From: Candidatus Omnitrophota bacterium
Lineage (GTDB): Bacteria > Omnitrophota > Gorgyraeia > Tantalellales > Tantalellaceae
Assembly: GCA_015231405.1 (NCBI GenBank)
Contig: JADGBR010000017.1
Location: 1,651-65,482 of the forward strand
DNA: 63,832 nt
Reading direction: 5' to 3'
Shown here: piece by piece, positions 11,797-56,500 of the stretch
How positions within the stretch are numbered: position 1 is the stretch's first letter
How the letters are laid out: the number at the start of each line of letters is the position of its first letter
Position numbers and translations under genes: made by a program
The notes under the pieces: model-generated
Seen by the model: only the letters and a program-made list of their open reading frames with translations
What the model was told of the DNA's origin: nothing
Databases searched by the model: none

Positions 11797-11853
11797 TATC
11801 CCCCTTTTATCCCACCAATGTCAAACATTCCTTTCCACAGAATAGATGATAAT

Positions 11854-14310: not shown

Positions 14311-14391
14311 ATCTTCTTTCCTTTAATGGTTCGTTCATGACGACTGACTCTAAGCTAAACCCGAACCCGTCAATGCTCGGAAGCGAAAGCC

Positions 14392-32759: not shown

Positions 32760-34261
32760 AGAAGCTGGTCCTCACGCGAAAAGCGTCGCAGATGGTCTTT
32801 TTGGGGCTTTTCGTTTATATTTTGTGGTCCACGACGTACCCTCTTAAGGGCTTGTTCCCGTCAGACGCCTTCTTCAAGATCGACCCTTTGACGGTCATGT
32901 TCACTTCCTTAAGCGAAAGGGTATTTCTCCCGGGATTTATTATATCGCTCCTTATGTTGGCTCTCACCCTCGTCTTTGGAAGATTTTTCTGCGGATGGGT
33001 CTGCCCTCTGGGGACATGCCTCGACCTCACGGCTTTCGGAAAGAAGAGAAAGACCGTGCTCCGGGAAGCAGCGGGAGAGCGTATCCGGCGAATCAAGTAC
33101 ATCGTTCTTGGGACGATCTTCCTCTTCGCCGTTCTCGGCGTCCAGTGCGCGTGGGTGTTCGACCCGATCGTCATCGCCGCGCGGTTCGTGTCGCTCAACC
33201 TGATCCCATGGGTCACGATGGGAGTTGAAAGATCTATGGTCTTCGCTATCCAAAGGTTCGATCTCTACGGCCCTTTCTACGATCTTTACAGGGACCTTAG
33301 ATCGTCTTTCCTCGGTATAAACATAAACATGCCCGAGAACTCCGGAGTGATCTTCGCCTCGTTCGCGCTCTTACTTCTCGCCTCCGGCCGTGTCCCACGC
33401 CTTTGGTGCCGGACATTATGCCCGCTCGGAGCTCTCTATTCCCTCCCCGCGAAACTGTCGCTATTGGAACGGCGCTCCGAAAAGTGCACGCGTTGCGGGG
33501 TATGTTCGAAAAATTGCCGTATGGGCGCCATCAAGGATACCGGCGCGTACAATAAAGCCGAATGCGTCCTTTGCATGGACTGCGTTTATGACTGCCGGCC
33601 GGGCACTTCTTTCAACTGGCACAAGGCAAAACGCCGGGACAGAGCCCAGGCGAAAGACGCCCGGGGGATGTCGCGGAAAGATTTTCTTTTATTCTTCATT
33701 ATTCCCCTCGTAGCCGGCTTTAAGAACAAGGACGAAACTGCCGGAATGCCGGATATCGGGCTCATTGACGCCGCGGTGATACGCCCGCCCGGAGCCCAGA
33801 ACGAGAAAAAATTTCTCAACCTCTGCGTAAGATGCGGAAACTGCATGAAAGTCTGCATAACAGGGGCACTGCATCCGGTAATGTTCGAATCGGGGTTGGA
33901 AGGGCTCTGGTCGCCGCGCCTGGTCCCTGAGCTCGGTTACTGCGAATACAATTGCAACCTCTGCGGGCAGGTCTGCCCAACGGGAGCCATACCGTCCCTC
34001 CCGTTACCGGAAAAGAAAAAACAGATACTCGGGCTCGCCGTAGTCGATAAGACCATCTGTTTACCCTGGGTCAAAGGCAAGGACTGCATAGTATGCGAGG
34101 AACACTGCCCCACGCCGGACAAAGCCATAAAAATGGAAATTGACACCAGCGGCATCCGCCGTCCGATAGTTGATAAAACACTCTGTATAGGCTGCGGGAT
34201 CTGCCAGACCAAATGCCCCGTCCGGCCGCAAAGGGCGATACGCGTTATACCGACCGCTTAA
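32756..34261 (+). CDS. Membrane polyferredoxin (NapH-like N-terminal half plus multiple 4Fe-4S ferredoxin motifs)
   Basis: 501 aa. FCGWVCPLGT, WCRTLCPLGAL, then CTRCGVCSKNC, CVLCMDCVYDC, CVRCGNCMKVC, CNLCGQVCP, CIVCEEHCP, CIGCGICQTKCP. It has a 4-bp overlap with the DUF362 gene. Confidence 0.85.
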   Translation: MKKLVLTRKASQMVFLGLFVYILWSTTYPLKGLFPSDAFFKIDPLTVMFTSLSERVFLPGFIISLLMLALTLVFGRFFCGWVCPLGTCLDLTAFGKKRKTVLREAAGERIRRIKYIVLGTIFLFAVLGVQCAWVFDPIVIAARFVSLNLIPWVTMGVERSMVFAIQRFDLYGPFYDLYRDLRSSFLGININMPENSGVIFASFALLLLASGRVPRLWCRTLCPLGALYSLPAKLSLLERRSEKCTRCGVCSKNCRMGAIKDTGAYNKAECVLCMDCVYDCRPGTSFNWHKAKRRDRAQAKDARGMSRKDFLLFFIIPLVAGFKNKDETAGMPDIGLIDAAVIRPPGAQNEKKFLNLCVRCGNCMKVCITGALHPVMFESGLEGLWSPRLVPELGYCEYNCNLCGQVCPTGAIPSLPLPEKKKQILGLAVVDKTICLPWVKGKDCIVCEEHCPTPDKAIKMEIDTSGIRRPIVDKTLCIGCGICQTKCPVRPQRAIRVIPTA

Positions 34262-37200
34262 GCGGCGACCATGGTCCGGAGCGATTGGAGGTATTCCTGA
34301 TAACGTTCTTCCATATCCAGCGATATCTTCCTTACCGCGGGCAGGATGACCAGCCACCCCTCGCTCCCGGCCTTCTCCCGGACATCCATCGCCAGCCTTA
34401 AAGCCATGGCGAAAGAATATATCGCCTTTTCCATGCCGAAAACGACGACGGGCACTTCCATTTTGCGTGAAAGTCCGGCAAGCCTTTCCGGGTCTTTTGT
34501 GGCGCCCTTAAAAACGCCCAGGATCTCACGGGCGCCGCGGGCCCTGGATATTTTTATGAGCGCCCTGACAAGCTCCGTCTCGGAACTTATCTCCTTCCTC
34601 ATCGATACGTCGGAGCTAAGGATCACGACCGTCTCGAACGTAGTTCCGGCGGTCTTTATCATCTTCTCCAATAGGAGCGCGTTCTCGGGGACTTCGGCGT
34701 AAATGACTATTTTTCCGTTACGGAAAATATTATTCTTCTTCGATATAATCTTCATAACGGGCCCGATATCCGTCATAAAAGCGTTATTCACTATATCGTC
34801 CGCGAAAAGTATCATGCTCTCGCCGTCGGACTCATACCCGGATATCTTCTTCTTAACGGAAGATGCTTCCGCGGAATATATGCCTTTCGCGTCCGAGCCC
34901 AGATCCTTGCCTGCTTTACCGAACCCGCCGAAAGCCTCGTCCAAAGCCGCGTCATCATCCGGATACCACGATACCGCGCTCTCATTTTCCGCCGCGATCA
35001 GTGATCCTTCCTGCCCCTGCTGGTCCCTGGCCTGGACGAAAATGACATCCAAAGTTTTATCTGCTCTTCCGACCAGACACCCTTCGATATCCTGCGCCAT
35101 CCCGAGGTCCTTTTCAATATCCAGGGCATATCCCATTATCCGCCTGAGTATCCCGTCAACCGAGCCGTCTTCGGCATCGAATATATCGTTCGAATAGTCC
35201 GCTTCCTTCTCGACGAGCCTCCTTCCCTCGACCACTATCTTAAGGTCCTTGTTGGCGAAAGCGAGCCTTCTGATCTCTTTGGTCAGCCTATTCACCGCGA
35301 ACCTGTGGGGCAGGCCTTCGTATCGCGTTTTGCCGCTCACGAGCGTCTCGCCCTGCCCCTGGACAAGTTCTATTATCATCTCTTCGTTATCAGAAGCCGA
35401 GGGGTCCCTCGTATGAACGACAAAACCGTAATCGGCGGGTATCAGTTCATGCACAAGGACCGCCATCCTCACGGAATCGTGGTCTATATTGTTCGCTTCG
35501 CGGTCATAAAAAGCCCTGGGATTCCAAACCGACGCCCAGACCGCTTTTACGTATTTATCGATATCGTCCAGATCTGTCGGGTCGATCATCCCGTACGAAT
35601 CGTATAATCCCGCCCCGGCATAACCGAAAAGGTCCTCGGCGTTGGTCGAAGACCTGAAAAAGACAGGTTTATCCCCTACCTCGCGCCTTATGGCCTCGCT
35701 TATGTCTTTAAGCGTCTCCCTCGGGATCGTGAGCCCTTTTATCTTCCGCTGAACAAGCCTTAAAAGGATGGGAATATCCTTTTCCCCTGCGGTTCTCAGT
35801 CTCGAAGAAAGACCGCGTATCATCCCCGCCGAACGTTTATTCTCGAAAACACCGAGGATCTTTTCATAGAACCCGAAACCGAGCGCGAGATGTTTGGACA
35901 TCTTATCCCCGCGCGTTATCTCTCCCAGCCTCATCGCCTTATTTCCGACATTACCCGGGCGGTAATCTCCGGGCAAAATTATCCCGCCGTTCGACAGGTC
36001 CGGATCGGGTATCTCAACATAATCTTTCCACTGTATTTTTGTCTCGGCTCCGCCGGACTCGTCACCCTCGGGAACGACCACGAGCTTATTCCCGGCGATA
36101 TCCGCCTCGATATTTTTACCCTGGTACTCCTCAATGATCTCATCCATGACCCTCTCGTCAGGGCATACGGCGAAAGGAACGCCGTACTGCCTGGCCCTTA
36201 TGGCGGGGTGGGATAAAAGGCTGTCTTCCGAGAACACGATTATACCGCCCACGTCCTTGAGAGGAGGACTATCGGCCGGGATATTATCCGCGACGATTAT
36301 ATCGCCCTTCCCGCACATGGCAAGTTCGGCGGGGTCTTTTATCATTTTGAATTTTCCGCGCATTTTCCCGGGGACTACCACCTGCCACATAGAGATATTA
36401 CCCTTCTCCATGACCTTACGTTTTATGTCCTTTAGCGCGAGCGCGAAAAGATAGATGTTGTCCGAACGGAAAATATTCGACGAGAAATTCTCGACCCAAA
36501 TTTTGTCGTCCTCGGAGACATTGATACCCACAGCTGTATGTTCCGCGAGTTCCTGATATCTCCGGACGCCGTGCATGGCTTTCAGGTTAATGTAACGTTC
36601 CATGCGTTTAATGATAGAGTACAACTTCCCGAGGTCCGTTCCCTTTCCGGAAGCCGACATAGCCGCGAGCTCTTTCATCATGTACTCCAAAGCCCCGGGA
36701 TCGTATCCGTTGGCTATGACGTTATTGGAAAGTATCCTTAAAATATCCATGTCCCCGTGTATGTCGTCATAGTTCTTATCCATTCCTGTATACAGCCTAA
36801 AAAAAAGGACCTCGAGAGCGTTAAGAAGCTTCATCCCGGGAAGAGCCGACTGGCCCGGCGAATTGATTATTATTTGTTTCAGCTTGAGCCTGGCCGTGCT
36901 TAAACGGTCAAGGACCTCGATGGAAGGTTTTCCGCCCGCCCGGGAATCGCGGATAGCGCCCTGGATAAACTCCTTCTCTTCGGCCATATTTTCAAGTGAT
37001 CTTGACCACTCGGTGAACATTTCATCGAGTTTATTCTCGTTACCTTCTCCGTAAACTTCCTCAAGAGAGATAAGCAACGGTTCGCAGGCCGCGAGCACTC
37101 TTTCCCTTCGCTCCGGATCTGTTATTCTATCGCTATCGTCGACCGGATAACCCATACGGGACAGCCTCGACTCCAGTGCCGGGTCCGAGCATTCTGCCCG

Positions 37201-40200
37201 GAGCCAGTCCATGAGGACTTTCATCGTCTCAAGCTGCAGCGGCGAAGGCCTGTTATGAATGTCGTTCCGGAGATTTCCTATCAGGCCATCCCTTCTGTCG
37301 CTGCCGCTCCGCGCTATGACCATTTGTCTCGCCTGCTCCCTCATAGTATTCAGGAAATCCTCGTCCCCGAGGGGCATTACTTTCATAAGCTGGCGTTTAG
37401 TCAGAAAACTTATATCGCGTACAGGCAGGAGATTGACTACCGCGTTCCTTATCCGCGGGAGCCTGTCCTCCACGTCCGCCCATGTCCCGAAGCCGACATC
37501 GTCCCCTACCCCCTGGCGGAGGAACCGTAGCGACACTATGATCTTATCGAGAAGCATCTCTCCCAGGACGGGATGGGCGACGGCTTCTTCCACAAAAGCC
37601 TGGACACCGTTCCAGCCGCCGGTGAGCCTCCTGTCCATCTGCTCGCGCACGGCCGGATTTATGTTTACAAGACCGTTCCTCGCCTCGGTAACTACCGCCT
37701 CGATCGAATTTGTCGCCGCTGTGTCCGATGAGTCCGCGAGTCCTCCTTCCCGCTCGGATAAGAAGCCTAAGAAACTGTCGAATTCTCCTTTACGGAGATA
37801 CGCGAAAGCAAGTCTGAACAATTCGCCTATCGCGTCGCTATCGACGCTTTTTGAGGCCATTTCAAATACCGTGTCCAGCGCCATGATGTCGCGCTTCTCG
37901 GCAAGACCGAAAAGGAAACCGAAACCGTAGATCATATCCTCGTCGCTGACCCCGAACCCCCCTCCCAGGCTTTTAAGAAGATCGTAGATCTCCTCGCTCT
38001 TAGTCGCCGGGGTTTTGAGCGCCACCCCCTCGGCTACGTCCAGTATATCGTGTTCCTCCACCGGGTTAACGCCCTTACGCAATCTGTCAACGAGATCGGA
38101 AAGCACCTTTTTGCCCTCGCCGTAAGGGTCGAGCGCCGCCACGGTTATAAGAAATCCCCTGGTCGATTCGGCGATCTGGTTAAACGTCACTTTAAGATAC
38201 GGCAATATCTTTTCGACCAAAGCAGGGGTTATGTAAGACCTGTCATTGGTTATGATGACCGTGAGCGCGTCAATAATATCATTCGTCGATGCGTGCCCTT
38301 CTAAATGCTCGAACATTTTACCTATGATTCTTTCACCGTAAGCTTTATCCGCGCCTTTCACAAATTCGGCGAGAAGAAGCGATACATCCCCGGCCAAGCC
38401 GTATCTCTCCATACCGATAGCCCTTTCCACCAGGTCTTTAAGGTCGGGGGTAAAAAGTTCAGGCCTCGACCGGTAAGCCCCGATATACGCCAGACAAGCC
38501 GCGCCTTTCGTATGCGACGAGCTGTCGACCACGACATCTTCCCTCGGCATATCGTCGTCCAGGAGTTTACGCACTTCGTTTATCATGTCCCTGTCCAATA
38601 GATCTCCCCTTTTCTCGGCCGCTACGCTGAAAACCCGGGCTATATCCTGTTTCTTGAAGGCTTCGCCTTTTTTCATCCCTTCTATCATGTCGAGAAGGTC
38701 GCTCTTTTTCAAATCGCCCGGTTTTTCGACGATATAAGCCTGGCATATTTCCCTGAAACCGAGGTCCGAAACCCTTGACTGCCCTGTGATCAACAGCAAT
38801 TTCAATATTTTATTAAAGAACTTTCTGTCGATGATATCGAAGTTAATATCAAAAGATCCCTCCAAAACATGGTAGACCGATCCGCTCACCCAGATATTCG
38901 GATCGTCGGGAAGATTCCTGTCACCCTTAACATCGAGAGCCGCGGACAATCTCCTTATGACCTCCTCTCTCCTCTCGGGGTACCTCTTAGCGATAAGCGC
39001 TAGGATACGCCCGTAATTTTCCATACTCCTGTAATGTTCGGAATGCAGGGTCGAGAATATTTTTTCAATGATCTTATCGCGGTATTCCGGCTTTTCGGCG
39101 TACAGCCTGACTATCGCGTGGACATTGGCACGGCTATCCATTTTCATCATGAGGGCCCTAAAAAGATTCTTGAATATACCGTCGTCCACCTGGCCTGGAT
39201 CCGCGCCATATATGACGGTATACACTTCCATATCATCCTGTTCATATTTGAGCTCTCCGCCAGATAACGTCATAGTGGAGGCGAGAATATCCATGAATTC
39301 ACGGGCTCTTGCCGGTTTGGCTCCGGCGATCTTCGCTATAGTGTTCTGGACGCGCGTTTTATCTTTACCTATCATCTCGACGTCGTAAAGTTTATCAAGA
39401 ACACGGCTCACCACATTATCACCTATCAGTTCCGGCTTGACCGCGGCTATGTCGCCTATAAGGCCCATGGCCGCGAGGGCCTTGGCTTTATTCACGCTCT
39501 CGAGCATATCGCAAAAAACATTCACCATATTAGGCATTATGAGGTCCGGACGCTTTTTGATTATAAGCGACAGCTTATACGCATATATGCTGAAATCATG
39601 GTCTCCGAGTGACCCCTGTTCGACGAACAATCGGATGAGTTCGTAAACAATGATATGCGGCATCAGGTCCTTTGAGGCGTCGAAGAAAGTCTTGAAGTAG
39701 TCGTATTCCTTCGTTACCTCGTTCCTCAAAAGCTCGAGGTACTCGTCATGCCTGCCGTTTTTAGCCGTAACGGGAATATCGAACTGGACTTCCTCGCCCC
39801 TGGTCGTAAGAAGGCTCCTGACCAATATCTCGCGGGCGTTCCCCGAAAATAACAGATCCGTAAAGAACGTATCACGATAAAACGTTATCACGGGACTTAC
39901 CGCCTCCACGAAGCATTTTTCTTCCGGAGAAAGCTCCGCGTCGAGAATATAACCCTTCCCGTCCCCGGTGAGCGATACTAAACTGATAGCCTCAGCCATC
40001 ATTCGAATGAAGAATATGTCCTTTTTAGAGCGATATTTTCTCGCTTCAGGAATGAAGCGGTAATAAGCCGATATTATTTCGCGCTTTTTCAGCGTTTCGT
40101 CCCTGACGAGAGTATAAATTCCGGACCGCGTTCCGGCGAGATAAGAAAGTGCCATCCGTATCTCTTCGTAGGCCAATTCTTTCATGAGGCGCTTTGGATC

Positions 40201-40476
40201 GCTTCTCAATTGTTCGGACGCCAGGATCTTCCCGTGCCCGTTGAAGAGGATCCCCTTCCCGAAGTATTCCAGTTTCTTCCTGTCAAGTTCGGTATTCTCC
40301 CTGACAAGCCTGGTCTCCTCAAGTTCCTTAAGCCATACTGACCGCTTGAACTCGGGTTCGGCCATGCCGGTCCATGGAGACAGAGTGTCCGCTCCAAGCC
40401 CGAAAGACAATGGTTCGATCAAAAGGGTAAATATAAGTAATGAAGATATTATCTTACGCATTCTTATGGAGCCCAC
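34258..40476 (-). CDS. Giant (2,072 aa) protein: signal/anchor, ~1,200 aa helical-repeat region, PEP-utilizer phospho-His swivel, PPDK_N-type ATP-grasp, and an unknown C-terminal domain
   Basis: The probable start is ATG 40461 (MRKIISSLLIFTLLIEPLSFGLGA). The swivel is GDIIVADNIPADSPPLKDVGGIIVFSEDSLLSHPAIRARQYGVP (His codon 36208-36210). The nucleotide-binding domain has GNKAMRLGE, FFRSSTNAEDLFGYAGAGLYDSY, VWASVWNPRAFYDR, MAVLVHELI, GQGETLVSG and AQDIEG. Confidence 0.85.
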   Translation of the reverse strand: MGSIRMRKIISSLLIFTLLIEPLSFGLGADTLSPWTGMAEPEFKRSVWLKELEETRLVRENTELDRKKLEYFGKGILFNGHGKILASEQLRSDPKRLMKELAYEEIRMALSYLAGTRSGIYTLVRDETLKKREIISAYYRFIPEARKYRSKKDIFFIRMMAEAISLVSLTGDGKGYILDAELSPEEKCFVEAVSPVITFYRDTFFTDLLFSGNAREILVRSLLTTRGEEVQFDIPVTAKNGRHDEYLELLRNEVTKEYDYFKTFFDASKDLMPHIIVYELIRLFVEQGSLGDHDFSIYAYKLSLIIKKRPDLIMPNMVNVFCDMLESVNKAKALAAMGLIGDIAAVKPELIGDNVVSRVLDKLYDVEMIGKDKTRVQNTIAKIAGAKPARAREFMDILASTMTLSGGELKYEQDDMEVYTVIYGADPGQVDDGIFKNLFRALMMKMDSRANVHAIVRLYAEKPEYRDKIIEKIFSTLHSEHYRSMENYGRILALIAKRYPERREEVIRRLSAALDVKGDRNLPDDPNIWVSGSVYHVLEGSFDINFDIIDRKFFNKILKLLLITGQSRVSDLGFREICQAYIVEKPGDLKKSDLLDMIEGMKKGEAFKKQDIARVFSVAAEKRGDLLDRDMINEVRKLLDDDMPREDVVVDSSSHTKGAACLAYIGAYRSRPELFTPDLKDLVERAIGMERYGLAGDVSLLLAEFVKGADKAYGERIIGKMFEHLEGHASTNDIIDALTVIITNDRSYITPALVEKILPYLKVTFNQIAESTRGFLITVAALDPYGEGKKVLSDLVDRLRKGVNPVEEHDILDVAEGVALKTPATKSEEIYDLLKSLGGGFGVSDEDMIYGFGFLFGLAEKRDIMALDTVFEMASKSVDSDAIGELFRLAFAYLRKGEFDSFLGFLSEREGGLADSSDTAATNSIEAVVTEARNGLVNINPAVREQMDRRLTGGWNGVQAFVEEAVAHPVLGEMLLDKIIVSLRFLRQGVGDDVGFGTWADVEDRLPRIRNAVVNLLPVRDISFLTKRQLMKVMPLGDEDFLNTMREQARQMVIARSGSDRRDGLIGNLRNDIHNRPSPLQLETMKVLMDWLRAECSDPALESRLSRMGYPVDDSDRITDPERRERVLAACEPLLISLEEVYGEGNENKLDEMFTEWSRSLENMAEEKEFIQGAIRDSRAGGKPSIEVLDRLSTARLKLKQIIINSPGQSALPGMKLLNALEVLFFRLYTGMDKNYDDIHGDMDILRILSNNVIANGYDPGALEYMMKELAAMSASGKGTDLGKLYSIIKRMERYINLKAMHGVRRYQELAEHTAVGINVSEDDKIWVENFSSNIFRSDNIYLFALALKDIKRKVMEKGNISMWQVVVPGKMRGKFKMIKDPAELAMCGKGDIIVADNIPADSPPLKDVGGIIVFSEDSLLSHPAIRARQYGVPFAVCPDERVMDEIIEEYQGKNIEADIAGNKLVVVPEGDESGGAETKIQWKDYVEIPDPDLSNGGIILPGDYRPGNVGNKAMRLGEITRGDKMSKHLALGFGFYEKILGVFENKRSAGMIRGLSSRLRTAGEKDIPILLRLVQRKIKGLTIPRETLKDISEAIRREVGDKPVFFRSSTNAEDLFGYAGAGLYDSYGMIDPTDLDDIDKYVKAVWASVWNPRAFYDREANNIDHDSVRMAVLVHELIPADYGFVVHTRDPSASDNEEMIIELVQGQGETLVSGKTRYEGLPHRFAVNRLTKEIRRLAFANKDLKIVVEGRRLVEKEADYSNDIFDAEDGSVDGILRRIMGYALDIEKDLGMAQDIEGCLVGRADKTLDVIFVQARDQQGQEGSLIAAENESAVSWYPDDDAALDEAFGGFGKAGKDLGSDAKGIYSAEASSVKKKISGYESDGESMILFADDIVNNAFMTDIGPVMKIISKKNNIFRNGKIVIYAEVPENALLLEKMIKTAGTTFETVVILSSDVSMRKEISSETELVRALIKISRARGAREILGVFKGATKDPERLAGLSRKMEVPVVVFGMEKAIYSFAMALRLAMDVREKAGSEGWLVILPAVRKISLDMEERYQEYLQSLRTMVAA

Positions 40477-40707: not shown

Positions 40708-40959
40708 TCATTTACCGCAAGAACTCGATGACCCGCAAGAACCAGCAGCGCCTTCGCCTTCGGCGGCGGTTCCCTCGCCTTCCGCGGCTGCTTTTTTACC
40801 GGCTTTCGCGCTCGCCGTGTCGGCGGCCTTTTCTCCGCCTTCTCCGGCGCTCGGACCGCAAGCGCCGCATCCCGCGTAAGCGCTAGCGGCCATGAAAACC
40901 GACAAAAAGACCGCGAGGCTTATCCCTGCCAGAACTTTCTTCAATTTGCTCATTTCCAT
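40708..40959 (-). CDS. Small secreted Ala/Gly/Glu-rich peptide with terminal Cys pairs
   Basis: 83 aa. Signal peptide ...AASAYA|GCGACGPSAGEGGEK...AAGSCGSSSSCGK. It has its own terminator. Confidence 0.55.
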   Translation of the reverse strand: MEMSKLKKVLAGISLAVFLSVFMAASAYAGCGACGPSAGEGGEKAADTASAKAGKKAAAEGEGTAAEGEGAAGSCGSSSSCGK

Positions 40960-48193: not shown

Positions 48194-49702
48194 TCACTTC
48201 CAGGAATTACGGCGGGCAATAGCGTGGTCGTAGACGCGCTCGTATTTTTTGGCGGCCTTTTCCCAGGTATAATCCTCGTGCATGGCCTGCATGCGGAGTT
48301 TGGCGATGTGGTGTGGCCTGTCGTAGTAGGTGCTGACCGCCCAGCCGACCGTGTAGTATATCGATATGGGGTCCGGCGAATAGAACGCGAAGCCCGTGCC
48401 TGAGCCGGTGGCTTCGTCATAATTGAAGACCGTGTCGCGGAGCCCGCCGATCGACCTCACTATCGGAAGAGTCCCGTATTTCATGCTGTAGATCTGGCTG
48501 AGGCCGCAGGGCTCGTAAAGCGACGGCATTAGAAAGAAGTCCGCTCCGGCCTCGATCAAATGAGCTTTCCTGTTCTCGTACCCTATCCAGGTGCCGATGA
48601 CGCCGGGATATTCGGCGGGTAGCCCGCCGAAGAAATCCTCTTGGGATTTTTCGCCGCTGCCCACTATCGCGAATTGTACCATCATGTTATTGACGATGGA
48701 TCTTATGATAGGCGCCACGTGCTGGAATCCTTTCTGCTCGGCGAAACGCGTGATTATACCTATAACGGGGATATCGGTCCTTTCCTTGAGAAGGAACTCC
48801 TTCTGAAGAGCTCTCTTACATATGGATTTCCCGGAAATATCCGAAATGCTGTAATTCGCGGGTATAAGCTTATCTTTAGCCGGGTCCCAATGGTCATAAT
48901 CGGCGCCGTTCAGGATCCCGTAAAAGTCGTCCCTCCGACGCTCAAGATATGGCGCGAGACCTTTGGCGCCGTCAGGGGTTAAGAGCTCGTCCCTATAGGA
49001 ATCGCTGACGGTGGTGACATTGTCGGCATAGAATATTGCCCCTTTCATAAAATGCATCTTCTCGTAGCTCTCGAATTTCGGTTCGGTAAAATTCTCGGCG
49101 CCGAGGCCCATGAAAGGATAGAATTCCATGGGGAAAACCCCCTGGTATCCGATATTGTGTATCGTGAAAACGGAAGCGGTGTTAGCGAAAAACGGGTCAT
49201 AAAGGTATTTTATCTTAAGATAGCCCGGGATGAGCCCGGTCTGCCAGTCGTTGCAATGGACTACATCCGGCTGGAAACCGATATCCTTCGCGAGCTGGAG
49301 CGCGGCGTGGCAAAAGAACCCGAACCGCTCGGCATTGTCGAAGAATTCGTCGATACCGTCATCGTAATATCCGGCCCGGCCGAAATAACCCTCATGCTCT
49401 ATAAAATACACGGGAACGCCTTCTAGCTCGCCCTCGAGTACCTCGCACCAGACCGTGCCTAACCCCATCTGTACGCCCATGGGAGATACGGCCTTTTTCG
49501 GGGCATGCTGTGATTTATTGATGTTCCAATAGCGAGGAAGGACGAGTCTCACGTCATGGCCCATTTTCTTAAGGACCTTCGGGAGCGCGCCGCAGACGTC
49601 GCCCATGCCTCCGGTCTTGGCGAAAGGAACCGCTTCTGAAGCGACAAAAAGTATCTTTTTTTTTGTATTGGTTTTCTTTTTCCCGGGCATGGCGTTTATC
49701 AT
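48194..49702 (-). CDS. glgA: Glycogen/starch synthase (ADP-glucose type, GT5)
   Basis: 502 aa. ILFVASEAVPFAKTGGMGDVCGALPKVL (KTGGL-like motif), HCNDWQTGL, PSLYEPCGLSQIYSMKYGTLPIV. Confidence 0.92.
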   Translation of the reverse strand: MINAMPGKKKTNTKKKILFVASEAVPFAKTGGMGDVCGALPKVLKKMGHDVRLVLPRYWNINKSQHAPKKAVSPMGVQMGLGTVWCEVLEGELEGVPVYFIEHEGYFGRAGYYDDGIDEFFDNAERFGFFCHAALQLAKDIGFQPDVVHCNDWQTGLIPGYLKIKYLYDPFFANTASVFTIHNIGYQGVFPMEFYPFMGLGAENFTEPKFESYEKMHFMKGAIFYADNVTTVSDSYRDELLTPDGAKGLAPYLERRRDDFYGILNGADYDHWDPAKDKLIPANYSISDISGKSICKRALQKEFLLKERTDIPVIGIITRFAEQKGFQHVAPIIRSIVNNMMVQFAIVGSGEKSQEDFFGGLPAEYPGVIGTWIGYENRKAHLIEAGADFFLMPSLYEPCGLSQIYSMKYGTLPIVRSIGGLRDTVFNYDEATGSGTGFAFYSPDPISIYYTVGWAVSTYYDRPHHIAKLRMQAMHEDYTWEKAAKKYERVYDHAIARRNSWK

Positions 49703-50567: not shown

Positions 50568-53500
50568 TTACGCCGCTAACATCGCTTCCTTATCATACTG
50601 ATAAACGCGCCTCAGCTCTTCCTCGTCAAGCGGGATGATCGGAAGTATCTTTTTTAGTTTATCGAGCGCGAACCTCACCTTATTGTAATCGCTCCTCACC
50701 AGGGCCATAATGTCCTTTTCATCCAGGTCGAACCCGGATATCGTCGAAACTCCGGCAAGGTCCCCTAAAGTATCGATGGTCTCCCCGATAAAAGTTTTAT
50801 TATACTCGCCGTTAGCTATATGCACCAGCCTTAAACCCAGGAGCGTGCTCCTAATAAGCCCCGCCATGTCCTTCCCCTCGTCGTACATCCCGACAGGGAT
50901 AAGAATGGTGTCCTCCGGATCCATCATGCCTATCCTTTCCATCATGTCGATATTTGAGCCCAGATCCTCGTCCTTGCCGGTGATGAACAGCGTGACCGTG
51001 TTGGATCTCGACGGCACGATATCGAATTCTTCGCGCGTCATGCCGTATCGGGCATAATCCCGGTCCGTAACGGACCCTCGCCCGTTCGAACTATAAAGAG
51101 CCAGTTTCAGGTTAGACCCGTTCCCCGGCTTAAAGGCCGTGAGAAAATCCCGCGCGTTCTCCTCGCCGATAAGGTCCAACTCCTCGACAGGGACCCTGAT
51201 CACTACCGGTTTACGCCCCGACCCTATGACCCGCGGGAGAAAGTCCCGGCTCGAATCGATAAATCCGTCAAGAGCGATACGGTAAAGCTCTCCCGTCTCC
51301 CGGTAATTTTTGCCTCCCGGACCGTAGTTGCGATAAGTCCCTCCTCCTCCTGCATCGGCCGTCTGAACGGCCGCCGTTTCTTTCTTATGTTCATAAACCA
51401 CCGGCCCCGTAACCTCTTCATTAGGTCCCATTCCGGGCAATAAAAGCTGAGTCTGGCGGGCCGCTGTCTGTCCGGGAAGACCGGGTGTTTTGACTTTATC
51501 GCTTTTCTCAGGCATATCGGCGGGCGGCGCGCTTTCTTCCGGTCCCATCCCTGGAAAGAAAAGCTGGGTCGTCAGGGTAGCCGGCTGTTCCGAGGTCACG
51601 GTTGTTTCTAGATACGGTATGACTTCTTCGCGCGTCGCGAGAATATCGATGAGATCCACCAGTTCCCCGTGCCGGAGGTCCCGAATTCTCTCCGTAAAAT
51701 CTTTTATCCCGGCAAATTGTTTTTCGGACCTTTCACGGACAATAGCGGCTATAACTCTTGAAATAAGCCCTTCGTCTGCCATTAACCGCGGGTGTACCCC
51801 GGGGAGCGCGACCCTCAAGGTCTCGGCGAGATCCTCTTCCCGGGCCGTATTGAGGTACGCGGCAACGGCGTCGCTAAAAACGGCGTTCATCTTCCCTCTG
51901 GAGACCGGCTCTTCCCGTTCCGCTATCGGGAAGGCCGTGCCGGTCCTGGCATACTCTTTCTGAAGATAACCCTTAACTTCTTCCACCAGCTCTTTCATCC
52001 CGGGAGGAACGGATATCCAACTCCCCAACGAAGGGTCTATCTCAGCGGCGAACGCTATGCCGAAAAACTTGCGTAAAAGCTGCCTGCCGTCGCCTTTGAT
52101 CCTCTCTCCCCTAAAGTACCTTCTGAACTCCTTCGCGGCCTTTTTGGCACACCGGGCCGCCATCACATCTCCTTTTTCGGACCTTATCTCCATTATCTCG
52201 AATATTTTTTCGCCTACCTCCTCTATGATCCCGTATCGCAGTTGGTCCTTTATCTCGTCCGGTCGTTTTTTAATGATCCCGCTCGAGAATATTTCGTCTA
52301 TCGCTTTATCCCCGCTCTTATAAAAATCATTGAAAATTTTCCAAACGGTTTTTTCCAGGTCGCTTAATACGAGCTCTATCATATATCTTGGCCTGGACCC
52401 TCCGGAGACAGGCCGGCTTTCATGTTTCTGGCACGTTGATAAGACAAAAGCCTTGCCCTTTGGAGGCTCATTGACCCTAGTATAAGCGATATCCTTATCC
52501 AAAAGAAATCCGAACCCGCTGTCCTTGAAAAGCCTTGAAAGGCCGAAGATCTCTTTATCTCCCCAAACCCTGAAATATTCCGTACTCACGGGTCCATACC
52601 TCCCGGTCTTAGTGTCAAACCCGGGCATGCCCGCAAAAGGCCCGCCTTCAAAAACGGCCGGCGCCGGCCTCAACAGGAACCCTTTGAACTCCTCTTCGTC
52701 ATCCATAAGATACGGCGTGAGGATATCGCTCACCGTCATTACCCTTATGAACAGGCTGAACTCGTTCTGGTCCATAGAAAGGTCCTGAGATATCCTTTTT
52801 ATACTCATTCCTTCCCAGGACCCACGGTTTTCGATTATTTCCGAGGCGATCCTCGGCCGCCTTTTCTCAGCGCCCTTCCCCTTGAACACTCCGCGGAGCA
52901 CGCCGTTAATAAGTTCGTTCTTAAGCCTTTCTTTCGGCGCTTCCCTTAAGCAATCGGCTATCGCCCTCTCGATCCTCTCGTTCAAAGCGTCTCTTCTGTC
53001 AGCGCCTTCTATGTATCCGAGAGAATGACCGTTTTCCTTATACTCCTCCTCCAGAAATCCGGCTTCATCCCTTATCAGCTTTTCCATCCGCTCCGGCAGT
53101 TTCCCATACCATTTCTCAAGGCTCCTGTCGACGTACAAAGCGAAACATTTATTGAAATACTGGGTCACGTTCGGCCATTCTTTTTTCATATCCGAGGAAT
53201 GGCTCTTTCCCGCGGACTCAAGATATTCTTCCACCGCTTTTTGCCCGAATATCATTGCCTCCATATTCCCGGACCTCGCCTTCCTGCCCATCGACAGGAA
53301 TACGGCAACGCCGATATTGGACAGTAAATTCATGCGGTTAATGGCGGCGTACGCCTCTTTTTCGAAAACAGGGTCTTTAGCGGCCGGCTTACTGACAATC
53401 CCCGCCGAGAAGAAAGGCCTTTCCGAGTAGACATGTTTCGCCAGAAAATCCTCGTAATTTTTCAGGTGCAAATCCCGGGGATAATCGCATAACATGAACT

Positions 53501-56500
53501 TATAGAGTTTTCTGGACCGTCCGTTCTCCGGAGACATTTGGTCCGTGCCAGCCGTCCCGATAACCACGTCGGCGGTACTGCCGGTATTCGCGTCCTTTTT
53601 CACCCTTAGGAAGCCCATATCTTTATCGAAGAGAAAATCCAATCCCGCTTTCTTAAAAAGACCGGAGGCCATTCGCAGTTCTTCATCGCCTATGATCCTC
53701 ACGTACCCTTCCTCCGGCCCTTCATACGTCCCATTTTCATAGCCTATGACCCCGCTCACCCTTTTTTGCACTTCATCATGGCTGTCGCCGTAGTTGCCGT
53801 CTTCGGCGAACGGCATACCTTCAAAAACTGCGGGAGCGGGGCGTATGTCATAAGTTGCATGCCCTCCGAAGCCTTGGCGAAGAAGGACCGGTTCCTGGCC
53901 GCGGGATCCAGGCCGGCTTGCTTCGTCTCCCGGGAAGACCAGGTAGGGGTCTATGAGTCTCGACCCCTCCAGCGCCATCAGCGTCATTACGAACTCATTA
54001 CCCTGAAATTTTGGCAGCCTTCGTTTAGCGTCTTCGATCCCGGTGAACGGCGTTCTCCGTTTCGTAATTATATCGTTTATCACCTTGTCACGTTCTCCGG
54101 CGCTCTCAAAAACGGGGGCAACCTGTTTTAATATAGGCTTTAGACCGGCCTTCAACTTATCCTCCGGGGTTTTGTTCAGATAATCGACTACGGCTTTAGC
54201 GAAACATGCGTTCACTTCGGCCCTTTTCTCGGCCGTAAATTCCTCATATTTAAGATATTCTTCATCCCGGTAGTTTTCCCTTATGAACGCCGCCAGTTCA
54301 TCCAGAAAACGCGTCATCGACAACGGCACTTTTATCCATGAAGCGAGATCAGGATCGGCGTAAGCCGCGAACGCTGTAGTGAAATACTCCCTGGCACGGG
54401 CCACGTCAAAGCCCCCCTGCTCGGCGACCTTTCCGAACTCAAAGTATAATTTCCTCGCCAGTTTTAAGCCCTTCCTGTTCCGGGGATCATCCAGAAAAAC
54501 CTCCAGTACCCTCGCGATATCGGTAAACGCTTTATATTTTACGAACGAAACCAGGTCAGGAGGAACATCCGTAATGATCTCCTTGAAGCCCAGACCGGTC
54601 AAAAGAGACCCCGGGTTAGTTCCTAACGTGTTTACCAATCCGTCGTAACGCCCTTCGACCAGATCGTACAGGATAAGTTTAGCTATGGCCCTTTCTTCTT
54701 GGGGCTTTCCGGGGGATGAGACAGCGTCCTTAACGACCGATATGCTTGACAAACAGACCTCTTTTCTATCGGCGGCTTTCACGCGCGAATACCCGATGAC
54801 TTTCCGCAAAATAGGGCCGAACCCCTTACCTTCGACCTTAGCCCAAACCTCCCTAAGGGTTCCGTCGCTCATCAGCCTTTTGTAGCCCGGTTCAGGGTCA
54901 TTATACTTACCGTCAAAAACGACCGGGCCTTCAATAAGAGGATTGATCTCGCCACCCGTACCGTAATTCGTGTCCGCGCCAAGCGGTATCCCCTTATAAA
55001 GCACCGGGGCCGGGAGGAACAGGTCACCTGTTCCGGCGCCTCCGCCATCCTCCGGGTTTTCCTGTTCCAGAGCGCTCTGCCACGGGACTATTATCCCTTT
55101 ATCTATAGCCCTGAACGTTAATTCCACAAGGACGTCTTCCGTAAGGCCGCTTTTCCGGGATATACCGTCTATCCCGCTATACGGGCCGTTTACGCATAAC
55201 TTCATTACGGCGTCCCTTCGTTTCGCCTCGTCACCGGATCCTTTGATCTCCTTTATGGCTTCATATAGCTTAGCCACGCGGTCCGGAGCGTGGCCGTTCA
55301 AAAAATCCGTCAGCGTCGACCCGATCGCTTTTATCTGCTCCGGTCCCGTCAATTCGCCTTTTAACGGCAGATAAAATGCGCGGCCGTGCTCCCGGGCTTC
55401 GTCCCGGTAAAATTCCGCCAACTCCTTGAAGAACACCTTCTCCTCAGGGCTAATAGCCCCGGTATCTATCTTCAGGGCGGGATCGACGAATACGGGGAAC
55501 ACGGCTCTAATGAATACCCCAAGGAACTCGTCCCTTTCCCGTACCGACTTTGGCCATGAATACCAGTCCCGTCGCCGTATTCCCGGAGTGTCGGCGAAAC
55601 GTTTTACGGCCAGCTGAAAGGCCTTTCTGGTCAATTTGCCCGCTCTCTCTCCGCCTCTTGAGGCTTTCTGGCTGAGAACGCTGTATACCGCGCCGCCGGC
55701 CTGATACAGAAGTTCATACCGTACCCACGTCTCGAAAGCTTTCTTTTCAGTTTCAGGTCTCCCCCTGACAGCTTTCACGTTCACAAGATGCCCGACATAT
55801 CCACTCCCGCCGTATAGCTTCCCGACAATGGCCTCGTATACGTCCCGGACACAGTCGTACAATATAAGCTTCCCGTCGACCCAAAACTTTCCTCCGTCAG
55901 GCGCCTCACCCGCTAGGAGCGCTATATTCGAAAATCCCTGTACGGGGCCGGTGCCGGGGTTATTTTTTTCCACCCTGGCAAACCCCATGTCATGGTCCAG
56001 AACCGCCCCGAACCCCGCTCCCGACATTAATGCCGCTATATTTTCTATTTCCCCGTCGCTTACCACCCGTACGTATCCGGACCGGCATTCTTCGTAGCCC
56101 CCTTTTGCGGCGTCGAATGGAACGGTCTCGAGCCCAAGGGCGCCTATCTCGGCCGTCATGTTCCCGAAATTATCGTCCGCGGCGAAATCTGTCCCGCTGA
56201 ATAGGGTTCTCGCCGGGGCCATCGCCGGATAGACAGACCCTTCCTGGCCCCTTCTCTTTCCGGTTTTCTCCCTTAATTTATCATAGTCCACCCTCCCCGG
56301 ATTTTCGGGCATGTATTGCCATATCTGGTCGCCGCCCGTCAAATGCCAGACAAGAAAAGGAAGGTCGTTGTGGTCGTAACACTTAAAAACATCCCTGAAT
56401 TCCCTGAACGATGCGAACGGTTTTTTTCGTAATATCAGTTCCACCATATCGTGTCTTAGGGAAGCGTTTCCGTAACCCGGGCATTGCGTCTTAAGCGCCT

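What the first reader, a model, noticed from the sequence alone, without database searches (positions are those of the whole stretch)
34258..40476. 2,072-aa protein with the glucan/water-dikinase domain order (His swivel before ATP-grasp) fused to a huge helical N-terminus and an N-terminal signal/anchor
**Domains seen**
- A PEP-utilizer mobile domain with the phospho-His context SLLSHPAIRARQYGVP (His codon 36208-36210).
- Directly after it, a PPDK_N-type nucleotide-binding domain: FFRSSTNAEDLFGYAGAGLYDSY, VWASVWNPRAFYDR, MAVLVHELI, GQGETLVSG, AQDIEG.

**Why the order matters**
- In PEP synthase and PPDK the ATP-grasp comes first and a TIM-barrel PEP domain comes last.
- The order swivel then ATP-grasp, with no PEP/pyruvate barrel, is the arrangement I know from alpha-glucan/phosphoglucan water dikinases. 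Their motif wording (SS.N.EDL.G.SAAGLY.S, WAS..., MAVLVQE, GLGETL.SG, QD.EG) is similar.
- A glycogen synthase gene (glgA, 48194..49702) lies 8 kb away.

**What is unusual**
- A ~1,200-aa helical-repeat N-terminus replaces carbohydrate-binding modules.
- A hydrophobic N-terminal signal or anchor is present.
- There is an extra C-terminal domain shared with the other giant ORF.
Basis: partly seen in the sequence, partly recalled or inferred. Interest (0 to 1): 0.65.

Follow-up and report, generated by a model that had tools for sequence, protein, structure and literature searches.

The report
Starch-kinase-like enzyme on exported Omnitrophota protein
This 2,072-residue protein of an uncultured Omnitrophota bacterium carries an apparently working copy of the whole catalytic body of the plant starch-phosphorylating enzyme, but with a helical-repeat arm instead of starch-binding modules and an export-type leader, so what it phosphorylates, and where, is an open question.

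Summary

**What is there**
- Pfam finds a glucan-water-dikinase (GWD)-type phospho-His domain (residues 1364-1467, His1423) followed by a PPDK_N ATP-grasp (1562-1822). There is no PEP/pyruvate barrel.
- Profile-profile comparison extends the homology with GWD to about 810 columns (E 1e-75). It includes the helical region upstream of the His domain, so the whole GWD body minus its two starch-binding modules is present.
- His1423 and the ATP/Mg motifs are invariant in 26 relatives.
- In a maximum-likelihood tree the ATP-grasp falls with the His-first dikinases (96/92), away from PpsA and rifampin phosphotransferase. It sits in its own Omnitrophota-centred clade (98/92), outside the canonical GWD clade.
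- The N-terminal 960 residues are an export-type leader, a ~200-residue "head" shared by eight large ORFs of this genome, and a HEAT-type solenoid. No CBM-like domain is present.

**What does not hold**
- The C-terminal ~200-residue α/β domain is not shared with the neighbouring giant ORF. Only a ~27-residue terminal motif is, and that motif is common to about half of the genome's ≥1000-residue ORFs.
- The glgA link is weak: gene neighbourhoods vary among relatives.

**Verdict:** a new variant of the GWD superfamily, with substrate and site of action unresolved.

The parts
34258..40476 (-). Whole ORF, 2,072 codons from GTG; the likely start is ATG at 40459-40461 (Met6), giving 2,067 aa
   Evidence: the database twin P0002 is 2,067 aa
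40513..40541 (-). Promoter-like site TTTACA-17-TAAAAT in the ~230-nt upstream intergenic region. A hairpin plus T-run further upstream ends the preceding small gene, so the ORF is its own transcription unit.
   Evidence: consensus scan only
40390..40461 (-). Export-type N-terminal leader MRKIISSLLIFTLLIEPLSFGLGA: positively charged n-region, 12-residue h-region, Pro/Gly c-region. It is the only hydrophobic segment of the protein.
   Evidence: equivalent leaders occur in nearly all full-length relatives. No SignalP was available, so cleavage is inferred.
40369..40389 (-). DTLSPWT motif directly after the leader. Variants (TLSPWT, ALSAWT, SLAVWT, KLAPWT, TLAAWS) occur in other large ORFs.
39697..40389 (-). 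'Head' domain (residues ~30-260) shared with seven other large ORFs of the genome that carry other cargo
   Evidence: jackhmmer; phmmer. The model is of low confidence here.
37597..39639 (-). HEAT-type alpha-solenoid (residues ~280-955) occupying the place of the CBM45 pair of GWD
   Evidence: Repeated matches to Pfam-verified HEAT arrays of P0013/P0015/P0008/P0009. The AF2 model is all-helical and Foldseek hits SF3B1, CAND1 and importin-beta.
36397..37614 (-). GWD-type central helical domain (residues ~955-1360), including the IHNRPSP motif at 37240-37260 that aligns with LHNNTTPDD of GWD
   Evidence: hhalign A1 vs A2, E 1.3e-75; AF2 pLDDT ~80-90, all helical
36067..36387 (-). Phospho-histidine (swivel) domain of the GWD type. 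The catalytic His1423 codon is at 36208-36210, in SLLSHPAIRARQ.
   Evidence: Pfam PF22973, 39.2 bits; His and Arg1429 are invariant in 26 sequences
35011..35979 (-). ATP-grasp nucleotide-binding domain (PPDK_N) with K1513, RSSTNAED, WAS, MAVLVHE, GQGETLVSG, QDIEG and VQARDQQ
   Evidence: Pfam, 114 bits; Foldseek match to the rifampin phosphotransferase ATP domain 5hv6_A, TM 0.83; invariant columns
34873..35007 (-). Disordered, acidic/Gly-rich linker (residues ~1824-1868)
   Evidence: pLDDT 25-44
34261..34872 (-). C-terminal alpha/beta 'tail' domain (six beta-alpha units, Rossmann/flavodoxin-like). It is shared with four other ORFs of the genome (C5, C9, C33 6,953 aa, C55 6,552 aa) and with P0003.
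   Evidence: jackhmmer; AF2 secondary structure with pLDDT 80-90; no Pfam or PDB match
34261..34350 (-). Terminal strand-helix motif VILPAVRKISLDMEERYQEYLQSLRTMVAA. Its pattern (hydrophobic-LP, acidic amphipathic helix, ending [SA][AL]) recurs at the end of about half of the >=1000-aa ORFs.
   Evidence: Position-specific enrichment; tail HMM hits lie 28 of 29 at C-termini. This protein's own tail does not score in that HMM.

Best explanation
**What it is**
The gene encodes a catalytically intact dikinase of the glucan-water-dikinase (GWD) superfamily. It belongs to a distinct, Omnitrophota-centred sister family.

**How it most likely works**
- Shown by homology and conservation: residues ~955-1835 reproduce the whole GWD body, that is the central helical domain, the swivelling phospho-His domain and the ATP-grasp.
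- Inferred from the GWD/PPDK mechanism: the ATP-grasp binds ATP-Mg and His1423 takes the beta-phosphate, releasing AMP and Pi. The swivel domain then carries the phosphate to an acceptor hydroxyl held by the central helical domain.
- My best guess for the acceptor is a polymeric glycan, most likely an alpha-glucan.
- Target recruitment is not by CBM45 modules. It would be by a ~700-residue HEAT solenoid.

**Wider frame**
The enzyme is mounted in the frame typical of this genome's large proteins: a Sec-type leader, a ~200-aa head, the cargo, then an alpha/beta tail ending in a shared terminal motif. This suggests that it is exported or membrane-tethered rather than free in the cytoplasm. The site of action and the source of ATP remain unresolved.

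**What the confidence figure covers**
The figure is for the whole statement. The molecular identity alone (an intact GWD-superfamily dikinase outside the canonical GWD clade) I hold at about 0.85. A glycan acceptor I hold at about 0.5 (alpha-glucan 0.4-0.45), and export at about 0.55-0.6.
For: - Pfam gives GWD1_pHisD followed by PPDK_N, with no PEP barrel.
- All top-150 matches in an unbiased search of 1.8e9 proteins lie where a His-first core would sit, most spanning both domains.
- hhalign against 20 canonical GWDs gives Prob 100, E 1.3e-75 over 813 columns. The alignment starts right after the second Ig_N_CWD1 of GWD and includes the HN..P.D motif.
- The tree splits His-first proteins from PpsA/Rph/PPDK at 96/92. 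The family clade has 98/92 support.
- H1423, R1429, K1513, R1608, S1609, E1614, D1615, E1703, G1707, G1709, E1710, D1796, E1798, Q1815 and Q1819 are invariant in 26 sequences that share only 30-42% identity with this protein.
- The AF2 model has pLDDT 81. Its ATP-grasp matches the Rph ATP domain with TM 0.83.
- The HEAT solenoid is supported.
- The leader is conserved across the family.
- The head is shared by eight ORFs, and the head type goes with an [AS]A end in 7 of 7.
- Cysteine is 0.44% against 1.21% in ordinary-length ORFs.
- Some sugar-related neighbours occur near relatives:
  - a GlgX-like gene 1.1 kb from the in-genome paralogue;
  - glgA 7.7 kb away here;
  - one relative lies between gap and pgk-tpiA.
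- A GH13 domain occurs in a 7,588-aa ORF with the same head motif type.
Against: - No carbohydrate-binding module was found by Pfam or in the models.
- HEAT repeats usually bind proteins or nucleic acids, not glycans.
- The protein lies outside the canonical GWD clade and has a different ATP-grasp motif order.
- Gene neighbourhoods are not conserved. Four of nine show nothing sugar-related. The glycogen genes that are nearby are leaderless and in separate transcription units.
- An ATP-dependent enzyme outside the cytoplasmic membrane has no obvious ATP supply.
- Leader cleavage was not tested with a dedicated predictor.
- The N-terminal model is of low confidence (pLDDT 58, four-sequence alignment).
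- No GWD structure exists, so the role of the central domain as acceptor site is an assumption (PMC12892837).
Confidence: 0.5

Rival explanations
1. First reader's reading. It is a genuine glycogen (alpha-glucan), water dikinase acting on the cell's own cytoplasmic glycogen together with GlgA, GlgP and GlgX. The N-terminal hydrophobic stretch would only tether it to the inner face of the membrane or be non-functional.
For: - The full GWD body is present and intact.
- The genome makes and degrades glycogen: two glgA, glgP and GH13/CBM48 genes.
- Both in-genome paralogues lie near a glycogen gene.
- ATP is available only in the cytoplasm.
Against: - Charge distribution around the leader (positive N-flank, net negative C-flank) predicts N-in/C-out.
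- Several relatives have textbook AxA signal peptides.
- There is no CBM, and no operon link to glg genes.
- Neighbourhoods are not conserved in relatives.
- Among 120 sampled species genomes of the phylum, none outside this genome has an orthologue at E<=1e-40. Whether those genomes make glycogen was not checked.
Confidence: 0.15
2. It is an exported effector. The dikinase is one cargo of a two-ended (head plus tail) sorting or delivery system of Omnitrophota. It acts outside the producer, for example inside a host or prey cell using that cell's ATP, or on an envelope or matrix glycan.
For: - The leader, head and tail frame is shared with many large ORFs carrying unrelated cargo.
- The same HEAT plus GWD body rides on two different head/tail chassis in different lineages.
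- Cysteine content is low.
- The literature proposes that Omnitrophota giant proteins are extracellular and aid predation, and lists HEAT and PPDK_N among their commonest domains (10.1101/2023.11.21.568195).
Against: - No delivery machinery is linked to this gene; it is monocistronic.
- No experimental localisation exists for any family member.
- The terminal motif of this particular protein is too weak to score on its own.
- Topology predictions for such proteins are admitted to be unreliable.
Confidence: 0.15
3. The dikinase phosphorylates a non-glycan acceptor: a protein bound by the HEAT solenoid, or a small molecule as in rifampin phosphotransferase. The resemblance to GWD would reflect only a shared scaffold.
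For: - HEAT repeats are typical protein-binding scaffolds.
- The superfamily has repeatedly changed acceptor: pyruvate, rifampin, glucan (PMC4844700).
- The clade is separate from canonical GWD, and there is no CBM.
Against: - The GWD-specific central helical domain, with its most conserved motif, is retained over ~400 residues. That is hard to explain if the acceptor chemistry had changed completely.
- No known protein-histidine-relay partners are encoded nearby.
Confidence: 0.12
4. It is a pseudo-enzyme. The module is a structural or scaffolding remnant in a large surface protein and no longer catalyses phosphotransfer.
For: Many giant Omnitrophota proteins carry highly divergent domains. 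The location may lack ATP.
Against: The catalytic His and every nucleotide/Mg-binding motif are invariant across 26 relatives at 30-42% identity to this protein. That pattern indicates purifying selection on catalysis.
Confidence: 0.04

Closest known systems
Alpha-glucan, water dikinase (GWD1/GWD2, EC 2.7.9.4) and phosphoglucan, water dikinase (PWD, EC 2.7.9.5) of plants and algae, with their uncharacterised ~1,170-aa bacterial homologues (e.g. Gemmataceae)
   Same: - The same three-part body in the same order: central helical domain, GWD-type phospho-His domain, C-terminal ATP-grasp. Homology covers ~810 columns (E 1e-75).
- The catalytic His lies in LSH..RAR.
- There is no PEP/pyruvate domain.
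- Both belong to one tree clan that excludes PpsA and Rph.
   Different: - There is no tandem Ig_N_CWD1/CBM45 (or CBM20). A leader, a head and a HEAT solenoid of 960 aa stand in its place.
- The protein lies outside the 100/100 canonical clade.
- RSSTNAED precedes WAS, as in PpsA, whereas canonical GWD has it after GLGETLVG.
- There is an extra ~200-aa C-terminal alpha/beta domain.
- It has an export-type leader.
- The substrate is unknown.
PEP synthase (PpsA, EC 2.7.9.2) and pyruvate, phosphate dikinase (PPDK)
   Same: - ATP-grasp of the same fold and motif order: 109 bits to TIGR01418 on that domain only, and PDB 8a8e/2ols matches.
- The swivelling His mechanism.
   Different: - The domain order is reversed.
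- There is no PEP/pyruvate TIM barrel.
- It scores far below the equivalog cut-offs (109 vs 740 bits).
- It separates from them in the tree.
- The genome has its own canonical PPDK (C33).
Rifampin phosphotransferase (RPH-Lm; PDB 5FBS/5HV1; PMC4844700)
   Same: It is the best structural match for the ATP-grasp (TM 0.83 to 5hv6_A). It is also a three-component dikinase that phosphorylates a hydroxyl group.
   Different: RPH has the order ATP-grasp, then rifampin-binding domain, then C-terminal His domain. The rifampin-binding domain has no counterpart here, and RPH sits in a separate tree branch.
Large and giant multi-domain proteins of Omnitrophota ('Archaeovorins'; West-Roberts et al. 2023, bioRxiv 10.1101/2023.11.21.568195; 2026 preprint 10.64898/2026.06.07.730766)
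   Same: - The same phylum.
- HEAT repeats and PPDK_N are listed among their most frequent domains.
- Signal peptide or TM at the N-terminus.
- Cytoplasm-type enzymes in apparently exported polypeptides.
   Different: - Neither paper identifies the dikinase modules as GWD-type, nor describes the head/tail frame or the terminal motif (text searches of both papers for 'C-terminal', 'dikinase' and related terms).
- This protein is 'only' 2,072 aa with a single N-terminal hydrophobic segment, and it is not next to a type II secretion locus in the window.

Membership tests
Glucan/phosphoglucan, water dikinase (GWD/PWD) | Phospho-His domain placed N-terminal to the nucleotide-binding domain, with no PEP/pyruvate domain | tested here: met
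   Pfam coordinates are 1364-1467 then 1562-1822, with no PF02896
Glucan/phosphoglucan, water dikinase (GWD/PWD) | GWD-type pHis domain with a conserved catalytic His (potato His992 equivalent; PMC12892837) | tested here: met
   PF22973 scores 39.2 bits against a cut-off of 27. H1423 is invariant in 26 relatives and is aligned with the GWD LSHVSVRARN His.
Glucan/phosphoglucan, water dikinase (GWD/PWD) | Central helical region between the CBMs and the pHis domain | tested here: met
   hhalign gives Prob 100, E 1.3e-75. The alignment starts at P0028 residue 302 and ~residue 955 here, and IHNRPSP aligns with LHNNTTPDD.
Glucan/phosphoglucan, water dikinase (GWD/PWD) | N-terminal starch-binding modules (tandem CBM45 / Ig_N_CWD1, or CBM20 in PWD) | tested here: not met
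   There is no such Pfam hit at E<=1, whereas P0028 and P0060 each have two. The N-terminal model is all-helical.
Glucan/phosphoglucan, water dikinase (GWD/PWD) | Nucleotide-binding domain falls inside the canonical GWD clade | tested here: not met
   The canonical clade (22 rows, 100/100) excludes it. It lies in a separate 22-row clade (98/92) within the His-first clan (96/92).
Glucan/phosphoglucan, water dikinase (GWD/PWD) | Canonical motif order in the nucleotide-binding domain (WAS, MAVLVQE, GLGETLVG, then RSDSNGEDL..AGAGLYDS) | tested here: not met
   Here RSSTNAED (1608) precedes WAS (1647). In P0028/P0060/P0101 it follows GxGE.
Glucan/phosphoglucan, water dikinase (GWD/PWD) | Transfers the beta-phosphate of ATP to C6/C3 of glucosyl residues of alpha-glucan | not testable with these tools
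   This needs an enzyme assay.
PEP synthase / PPDK | Order ATP-grasp, then His domain, then PEP/pyruvate TIM barrel; score above the equivalog cut-off | tested here: not met
   The order is reversed and there is no barrel. TIGR01418 scores 109 bits against a cut-off of 739.75.
Rifampin phosphotransferase | ATP-grasp, then rifampin-binding domain, then C-terminal His domain | tested here: not met
   NF041857 scores 95.5 bits against a cut-off of 999, on the ATP-grasp only. It forms a separate branch.
Omnitrophota leader-head-cargo-tail large proteins (unnamed; seen in this genome) | N-terminal export-type leader | tested here: inconclusive
   The hydropathy and charge heuristic is positive, and the leader is conserved in relatives. 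No dedicated signal-peptide predictor was available.
Omnitrophota leader-head-cargo-tail large proteins (unnamed; seen in this genome) | Head domain shared with paralogues that carry other cargo | tested here: met
   jackhmmer converges on eight ORFs of 1,005-4,338 aa.
Omnitrophota leader-head-cargo-tail large proteins (unnamed; seen in this genome) | Shared C-terminal terminal motif | tested here: inconclusive
   At population level, 77 of 150 ORFs >=1000 aa end in [SAKT][LAV], against 111 of 1,681 shorter ORFs, and there is a position-specific pattern. This protein fits the pattern by eye and ends in AA, like all 7 complete head-family members, which end in [AS]A. It does not score in the 34-residue HMM.

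The most novel reading that the evidence does not exclude
The dikinase really is exported. It would be one payload of an undescribed two-ended (leader/head plus tail) sorting or delivery route of Omnitrophota, and it would work outside the producer's cytoplasm. The most interesting version places it inside a host or prey cell. There it would use the victim's ATP to phosphorylate, and so loosen, a storage or envelope polyglucan, which co-delivered glycosidases would then harvest. This would mirror the way GWD opens starch granules for amylases in plants.
Probability: 0.12. Interest if true: 0.85.

Novelty: new variant of a known kind. Interest (0 to 1): 0.55.

Why it matters
- **Few characterised relatives.** GWD and PWD are known experimentally only from plants and algae. 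They have no solved structure (PMC12892837). A 2024 review of prokaryotic alpha-glucan enzymes does not contain the words 'dikinase' or 'GWD' in the portion held for search (PMC11046441).
- **What this family offers.**
  - A compact, un-permuted, CBM-free version of the whole GWD body. It could be a tractable object for structure and mechanism work, including the unknown role of the central helical domain.
  - Evidence that the His-first dikinase clan is much broader than starch metabolism.
- **A general puzzle, made testable.** Omnitrophota place ATP-dependent, cytoplasm-type enzymes behind export-type leaders, between shared heads and tails. This protein is a clean single-enzyme case on which that puzzle can be tested experimentally.

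Tried and rejected
- **PpsA/PPDK or Rph identity.** Rejected on domain order, the missing barrel or RIF domain, equivalog scores and the tree.
- **Tail domain shared with the 4,420-aa neighbour.**
  - BLASTP finds nothing.
  - jackhmmer families of the two tails do not overlap.
  - hhalign aligns only 27 terminal residues (E 0.035).
- **A 34-residue tail HMM.** Built from 77 C-termini, it finds 28 C-terminal hits but not this protein. The motif is too short and diverse for single-sequence calls.
- **Search of 5.8 billion proteins with residues 1-960.** It returned only the protein itself. Local phmmer was needed to see P0003, the paralogue and the HEAT arrays.
- **Search of 120 species-level genomes of the phylum.**
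  - No orthologue at 1e-40 outside this genome.
  - Only seven other genomes match at 1e-8, in most cases over the pHis/ATP-grasp part only.
  - The family is therefore sporadic.
- **Foldseek against the PDB.** It gave no match for the central helical or tail domains.
- **Conserved glycogen-gene neighbourhood.** Not found: contexts are mixed.
- **A dual-specificity (SEX4/LSF2-like) phosphatase partner.** Only a sub-threshold 154-aa DSPc hit elsewhere in the genome.
- **Literature search.** It gave no paper linking water dikinases with Omnitrophota; the one co-occurrence read in full text concerned selenide, water dikinase and the second paper was not opened.

Full report
**1. The observation**

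The minus-strand frame 34258..40476 is open for 2,072 codons. An identical database protein starts at Met6 (2,067 aa).

The gene has its own upstream region. A promoter-like TTTACA-17-TAAAAT site lies at 40541-40513, after a hairpin plus T-run that closes a small upstream gene. At its 3' end it converges on a 4Fe-4S gene. I therefore read it as monocistronic.

Pfam finds three domains:
- GWD1_pHisD at 1364-1467 (39.2 bits, cut-off 27);
- PEP-utilizers at 1390-1437;
- PPDK_N at 1562-1822 (114 bits).

There is no PEP-utilizers_C barrel. NCBIfam PEP-synthase, RPH and PigC models hit only the ATP-grasp, far below their cut-offs. The codon at 36208-36210 is the His of DSLLSHPAIRAR.

**2. How close is it to glucan, water dikinases (GWD)?**

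*Database searches.* The length-filtered search could not have seen ~800-aa PpsA or RPH. I therefore ran the core (residues 1340-1835) through an index-free phmmer search of 1.84 billion representatives.
- 10,076 proteins match at E<=0.001.
- Most of the top 150 match over both domains in the order His then ATP-grasp; the rest match the ATP-grasp part only or are short fragments.
- The first ~25 (36-48% identity) are 1,100-3,500-aa proteins. Those with names come from Candidatus Omnitrophota, plus one from Firestonebacteria, and many have HEAT/PDS5-type Pfam hits.
- The next tier in the earlier, length-filtered search is ~1,170-aa bacterial proteins labelled alpha-glucan, water dikinase, and then plant GWD1/GWD2.

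*Pairwise scores.* On the ATP-grasp alone, scores to canonical GWD (53-115 bits for the best stretch) and to PpsA/RPH fragments (~67 bits) are similar.

*Tree.* I built a tree of 75 ATP-grasp domains (IQ-TREE, LG+C20, careful search).
- All His-first proteins lie on one side of a 96/92 branch. PpsA, RPH, this genome's canonical PPDK and its other PPDK_N paralogues lie on the other side.
- The protein lies in a 22-row Omnitrophota-centred clade (98/92).
- The canonical bacterial plus eukaryotic GWD clade (100/100) is a different branch of the same clan.

*Profile-profile comparison.* This is the strongest evidence. A 26-sequence family alignment against 20 canonical GWDs gives probability 100, E 1.3e-75 over 813 columns.
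- The alignment begins about six columns before residue 961 here, and at residue 302 of the bacterial GWD P0028. That is directly after the second Ig_N_CWD1 (CBM45-type) module of P0028.
- The ~400-residue helical region upstream of the His domain is therefore the GWD central region, not part of a generic repeat.
- Its best conserved GWD motif, WHQKLHNNTTPDD, aligns with IRNDIHNRPSPLQL.

*Differences from canonical GWD.*
- Both Ig_N_CWD1 modules are absent.
- In canonical GWDs the RSDSNGEDL..AGAGLYDS motif follows GLGETLVG. Here, as in PpsA and RPH, RSSTNAED precedes WAS.

**3. Is it likely to be active?**

In the 26-sequence alignment (30-42% identity to this protein) the following are invariant:
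- His1423 and Arg1429;
- Lys1513 of the GNK loop;
- R1608, S1609, E1614 and D1615;
- E1703, G1707, G1709 and E1710;
- D1796 and E1798;
- Q1815 and Q1819.

AlphaFold2 on residues 961-2072 gives mean pLDDT 81.4 and pTM 0.68. In model numbering the segments are:
- an all-helical domain (1-400);
- a beta-rich His domain (405-510);
- the ATP-grasp (540-860);
- a disordered linker (864-908);
- a six-strand alpha/beta domain (909-1112).

Foldseek matches the ATP-grasp to the rifampin phosphotransferase ATP domain (5hv6_A, TM 0.83, E 9e-13). It finds nothing solved for the helical or C-terminal domains. This fits the statement that no GWD or PWD structure exists (PMC12892837). I infer a working ATP to His~P to acceptor relay. 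Only an assay can show it.

**4. The N-terminal 960 residues**

- *Leader.* The only hydrophobic segment is the leader MRKIISSLLIFTLLIEPLSFGLGA. It has a positive n-region, a 12-residue h-region and a Pro/Gly c-region, and the following stretch is net negative. That is the pattern of a Sec signal or an N-in anchor. Nearly all full-length relatives have such a leader, several with textbook AxA sites. No signal-peptide predictor was available.
- *Head.* After the leader comes DTLSPWT and a ~200-residue 'head'. jackhmmer finds this head in eight large ORFs of the genome, 1,005-4,338 aa, with other cargo.
- *Solenoid.* Residues ~280-515 hit the Pfam-verified HEAT arrays of relatives many times over.
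- *Model.* A model of residues 1-960 has low confidence (pLDDT 58, four sequences). It is almost wholly helical with regular helix pairs. Its Foldseek matches are SF3B1, CAND1, importin-beta, condensin and CRM1. No beta-sandwich that could be a cryptic CBM appears.

**5. The C-terminus**

The ~200-residue alpha/beta domain is shared with P0003, with the in-genome paralogue, and with three other ORFs: 1,287, 6,953 and 6,552 aa.

It is not shared with the neighbouring 4,420-aa ORF:
- BLASTP finds nothing.
- The neighbour's tail belongs to another eight-member family.
- hhalign of the two families aligns only the last 27 residues (E 0.035).

What is shared is a terminal pattern: a hydrophobic strand with LP, an acidic amphipathic helix, and an end in [SA][AL]. 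It is common in this genome.
- 77 of 150 ORFs of >=1000 aa end in [SAKT][LAV], against 111 of 1,681 ORFs of 250-699 aa. There is clear position-specific enrichment.
- A small HMM finds 28 of its 29 hits at C-termini.
- All seven complete members of the head family end in [AS]A.

**6. Genome and family context**

- The genome (3.66 Mb, 96% complete) has 97 stop-to-stop frames of >=1,500 aa.
- It has ten PPDK_N-bearing frames:
  - one canonical PPDK;
  - one paralogue of the same architecture (C5, 43% identity);
  - several with PPDK_N followed by receiver-like domains.
- Among relatives, the same HEAT plus GWD body is carried on two different frames. One has an LSPWT head and a ..VAA tail, as here. 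The other has an FWVNL head and a GGIDL tail.
- The family is sporadic. In 120 species-level genomes of the phylum there is no orthologue at 1e-40 outside this genome. Only seven others match at 1e-8, in most cases over the pHis/ATP-grasp part only.

**7. Substrate clues**

*For a glucan:*
- The GWD central domain is retained.
- The genome has two glgA genes, glgP and GH13 enzymes.
- glgA lies 7.7 kb from this gene.
- A leaderless CBM48 plus GH13 (GlgX-like) gene lies 1.1 kb from the paralogue.
- One relative sits between gap and pgk-tpiA-secG, after two GalT-like genes. Others lie near PFK or an enolase megaprotein.
- A 7,588-aa ORF with the same head motif type carries a GH13 domain.
- West-Roberts et al. 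report glycogen-synthase-like GT5 domains as the second most common kind of domain in these giants, after HEAT repeats.

*Against:*
- There is no CBM.
- Four of nine neighbourhoods show nothing sugar-related.
- None of the links is operonic.
- HEAT repeats are not known glycan binders.

I put about 40-45% on an alpha-glucan acceptor.

**8. Location**

The leader, the head/tail frame and low cysteine (0.44% against 1.21% in ordinary ORFs) point to export or tethering outside the membrane. The need for ATP points the other way. Published work meets the same paradox and calls topology predictions for these proteins unreliable. I lean to export (about 55-60%) but regard it as open.

**9. Comparison and novelty**

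- The text searches of the two Omnitrophota papers turned up HEAT and PPDK_N only as frequent domains of Omnitrophota giants (10.1101/2023.11.21.568195).
- No paper in the searchable library links water dikinases with this phylum; the one co-occurrence read in full text is selenide, water dikinase and the second paper was not opened.
- Public annotations of relatives read 'PEP/pyruvate-binding domain-containing protein' or even 'sister chromatid cohesion protein PDS5'.
- Earlier notes of this scan on other genomes had already described GWD-like modules between shared heads and tails. I used them as leads and re-tested the claims on this protein.

**Verdict:** a real, probably active, new variant within the GWD superfamily. 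It is not a member of GWD sensu stricto. Its substrate and site of action are the interesting unknowns.

Noticed in passing
whole genome (G000); window 34261-34350 and 50568-50650: About half of the >=1000-aa ORFs of this 3.66-Mb genome share a ~27-30-residue C-terminal pattern: hydrophobic-LP, an acidic amphipathic helix, and an end in [SA][AL]. The genome has 97 ORFs of >=1,500 aa. Head type and terminal dipeptide co-vary: all 7 complete members of this protein's head family end in [AS]A.
   Followed up: partly
window 50568-63830 (-): The neighbouring 4,420+-aa ORF is 5'-open. The contig has a run of N just upstream. It has no Pfam domain above threshold. It contains at least five tandem modules, mostly ~390-410 aa apart, each starting PAPxxFxG..D..YG and holding GFGFLLDKD. 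Its 235-aa tail belongs to a different tail-domain family with eight members in the genome.
   Followed up: partly
genome contigs C3, C5, C11, C16, C22, C31, C48: The genome has ten PPDK_N-bearing frames. Four combine an ATP-grasp (N-terminal in C3 and C5b, internal in C11 and C48) with a weak receiver-like domain, in ORFs of 984-2,655 aa. These form a long-branched clade of their own in the tree.
   Followed up: partly
proteins P0028, P0060, P0101 (canonical GWDs): In canonical bacterial and plant GWDs the RSDSNGEDL..AGAGLYDS motif lies after GLGETLVG. In PpsA, RPH and the Omnitrophota family it lies before WAS. This looks like a rearrangement of the nucleotide-binding domain specific to the canonical GWD clade.
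   Followed up: partly
window 40710-40958 (-): A small gene encodes an ~80-aa secreted-looking Gly/Ala/Cys-rich peptide, with a signal peptide followed by CGACGPS...SCGSSSSCGK. It ends in a strong hairpin terminator, just upstream of the dikinase gene.
   Followed up: no
L032 (GCA_020063045.1 contig), gene at 10001-16090: The relative P0016 (2,029 aa, with leader) is inserted between gap and pgk-tpiA-secG, after two GalT-like genes, all on one strand.
   Followed up: no
L018 (G013:C54): The only full PEP-synthase match (TIGR01418, 745 bits) among 60 sampled Omnitrophota genomes lies inside a 2,737-aa open frame. A complete PpsA is thus embedded in a much larger protein.
   Followed up: no
protein P0005 (2,496 aa): This relative carries two tandem copies of the helical, pHis and ATP-grasp body in one chain.
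   Followed up: no
genome contig C55 (7,588-aa ORF) and C93 (1,915-aa ORF): A GH13 alpha-amylase-family domain sits inside a 7,588-aa ORF that starts with a leader plus an SLAVWT motif. A weak GT5 (glycogen-synthase-like) match sits in a 1,915-aa ORF with a leader and the shared terminal motif.
   Followed up: no
window 4119-8606 (-) and 8743-11796 (-): A 1,495-aa multi-PAS/GAF histidine kinase lies next to a 1,017-aa fused CheB-CheR-PAS protein.
   Followed up: no
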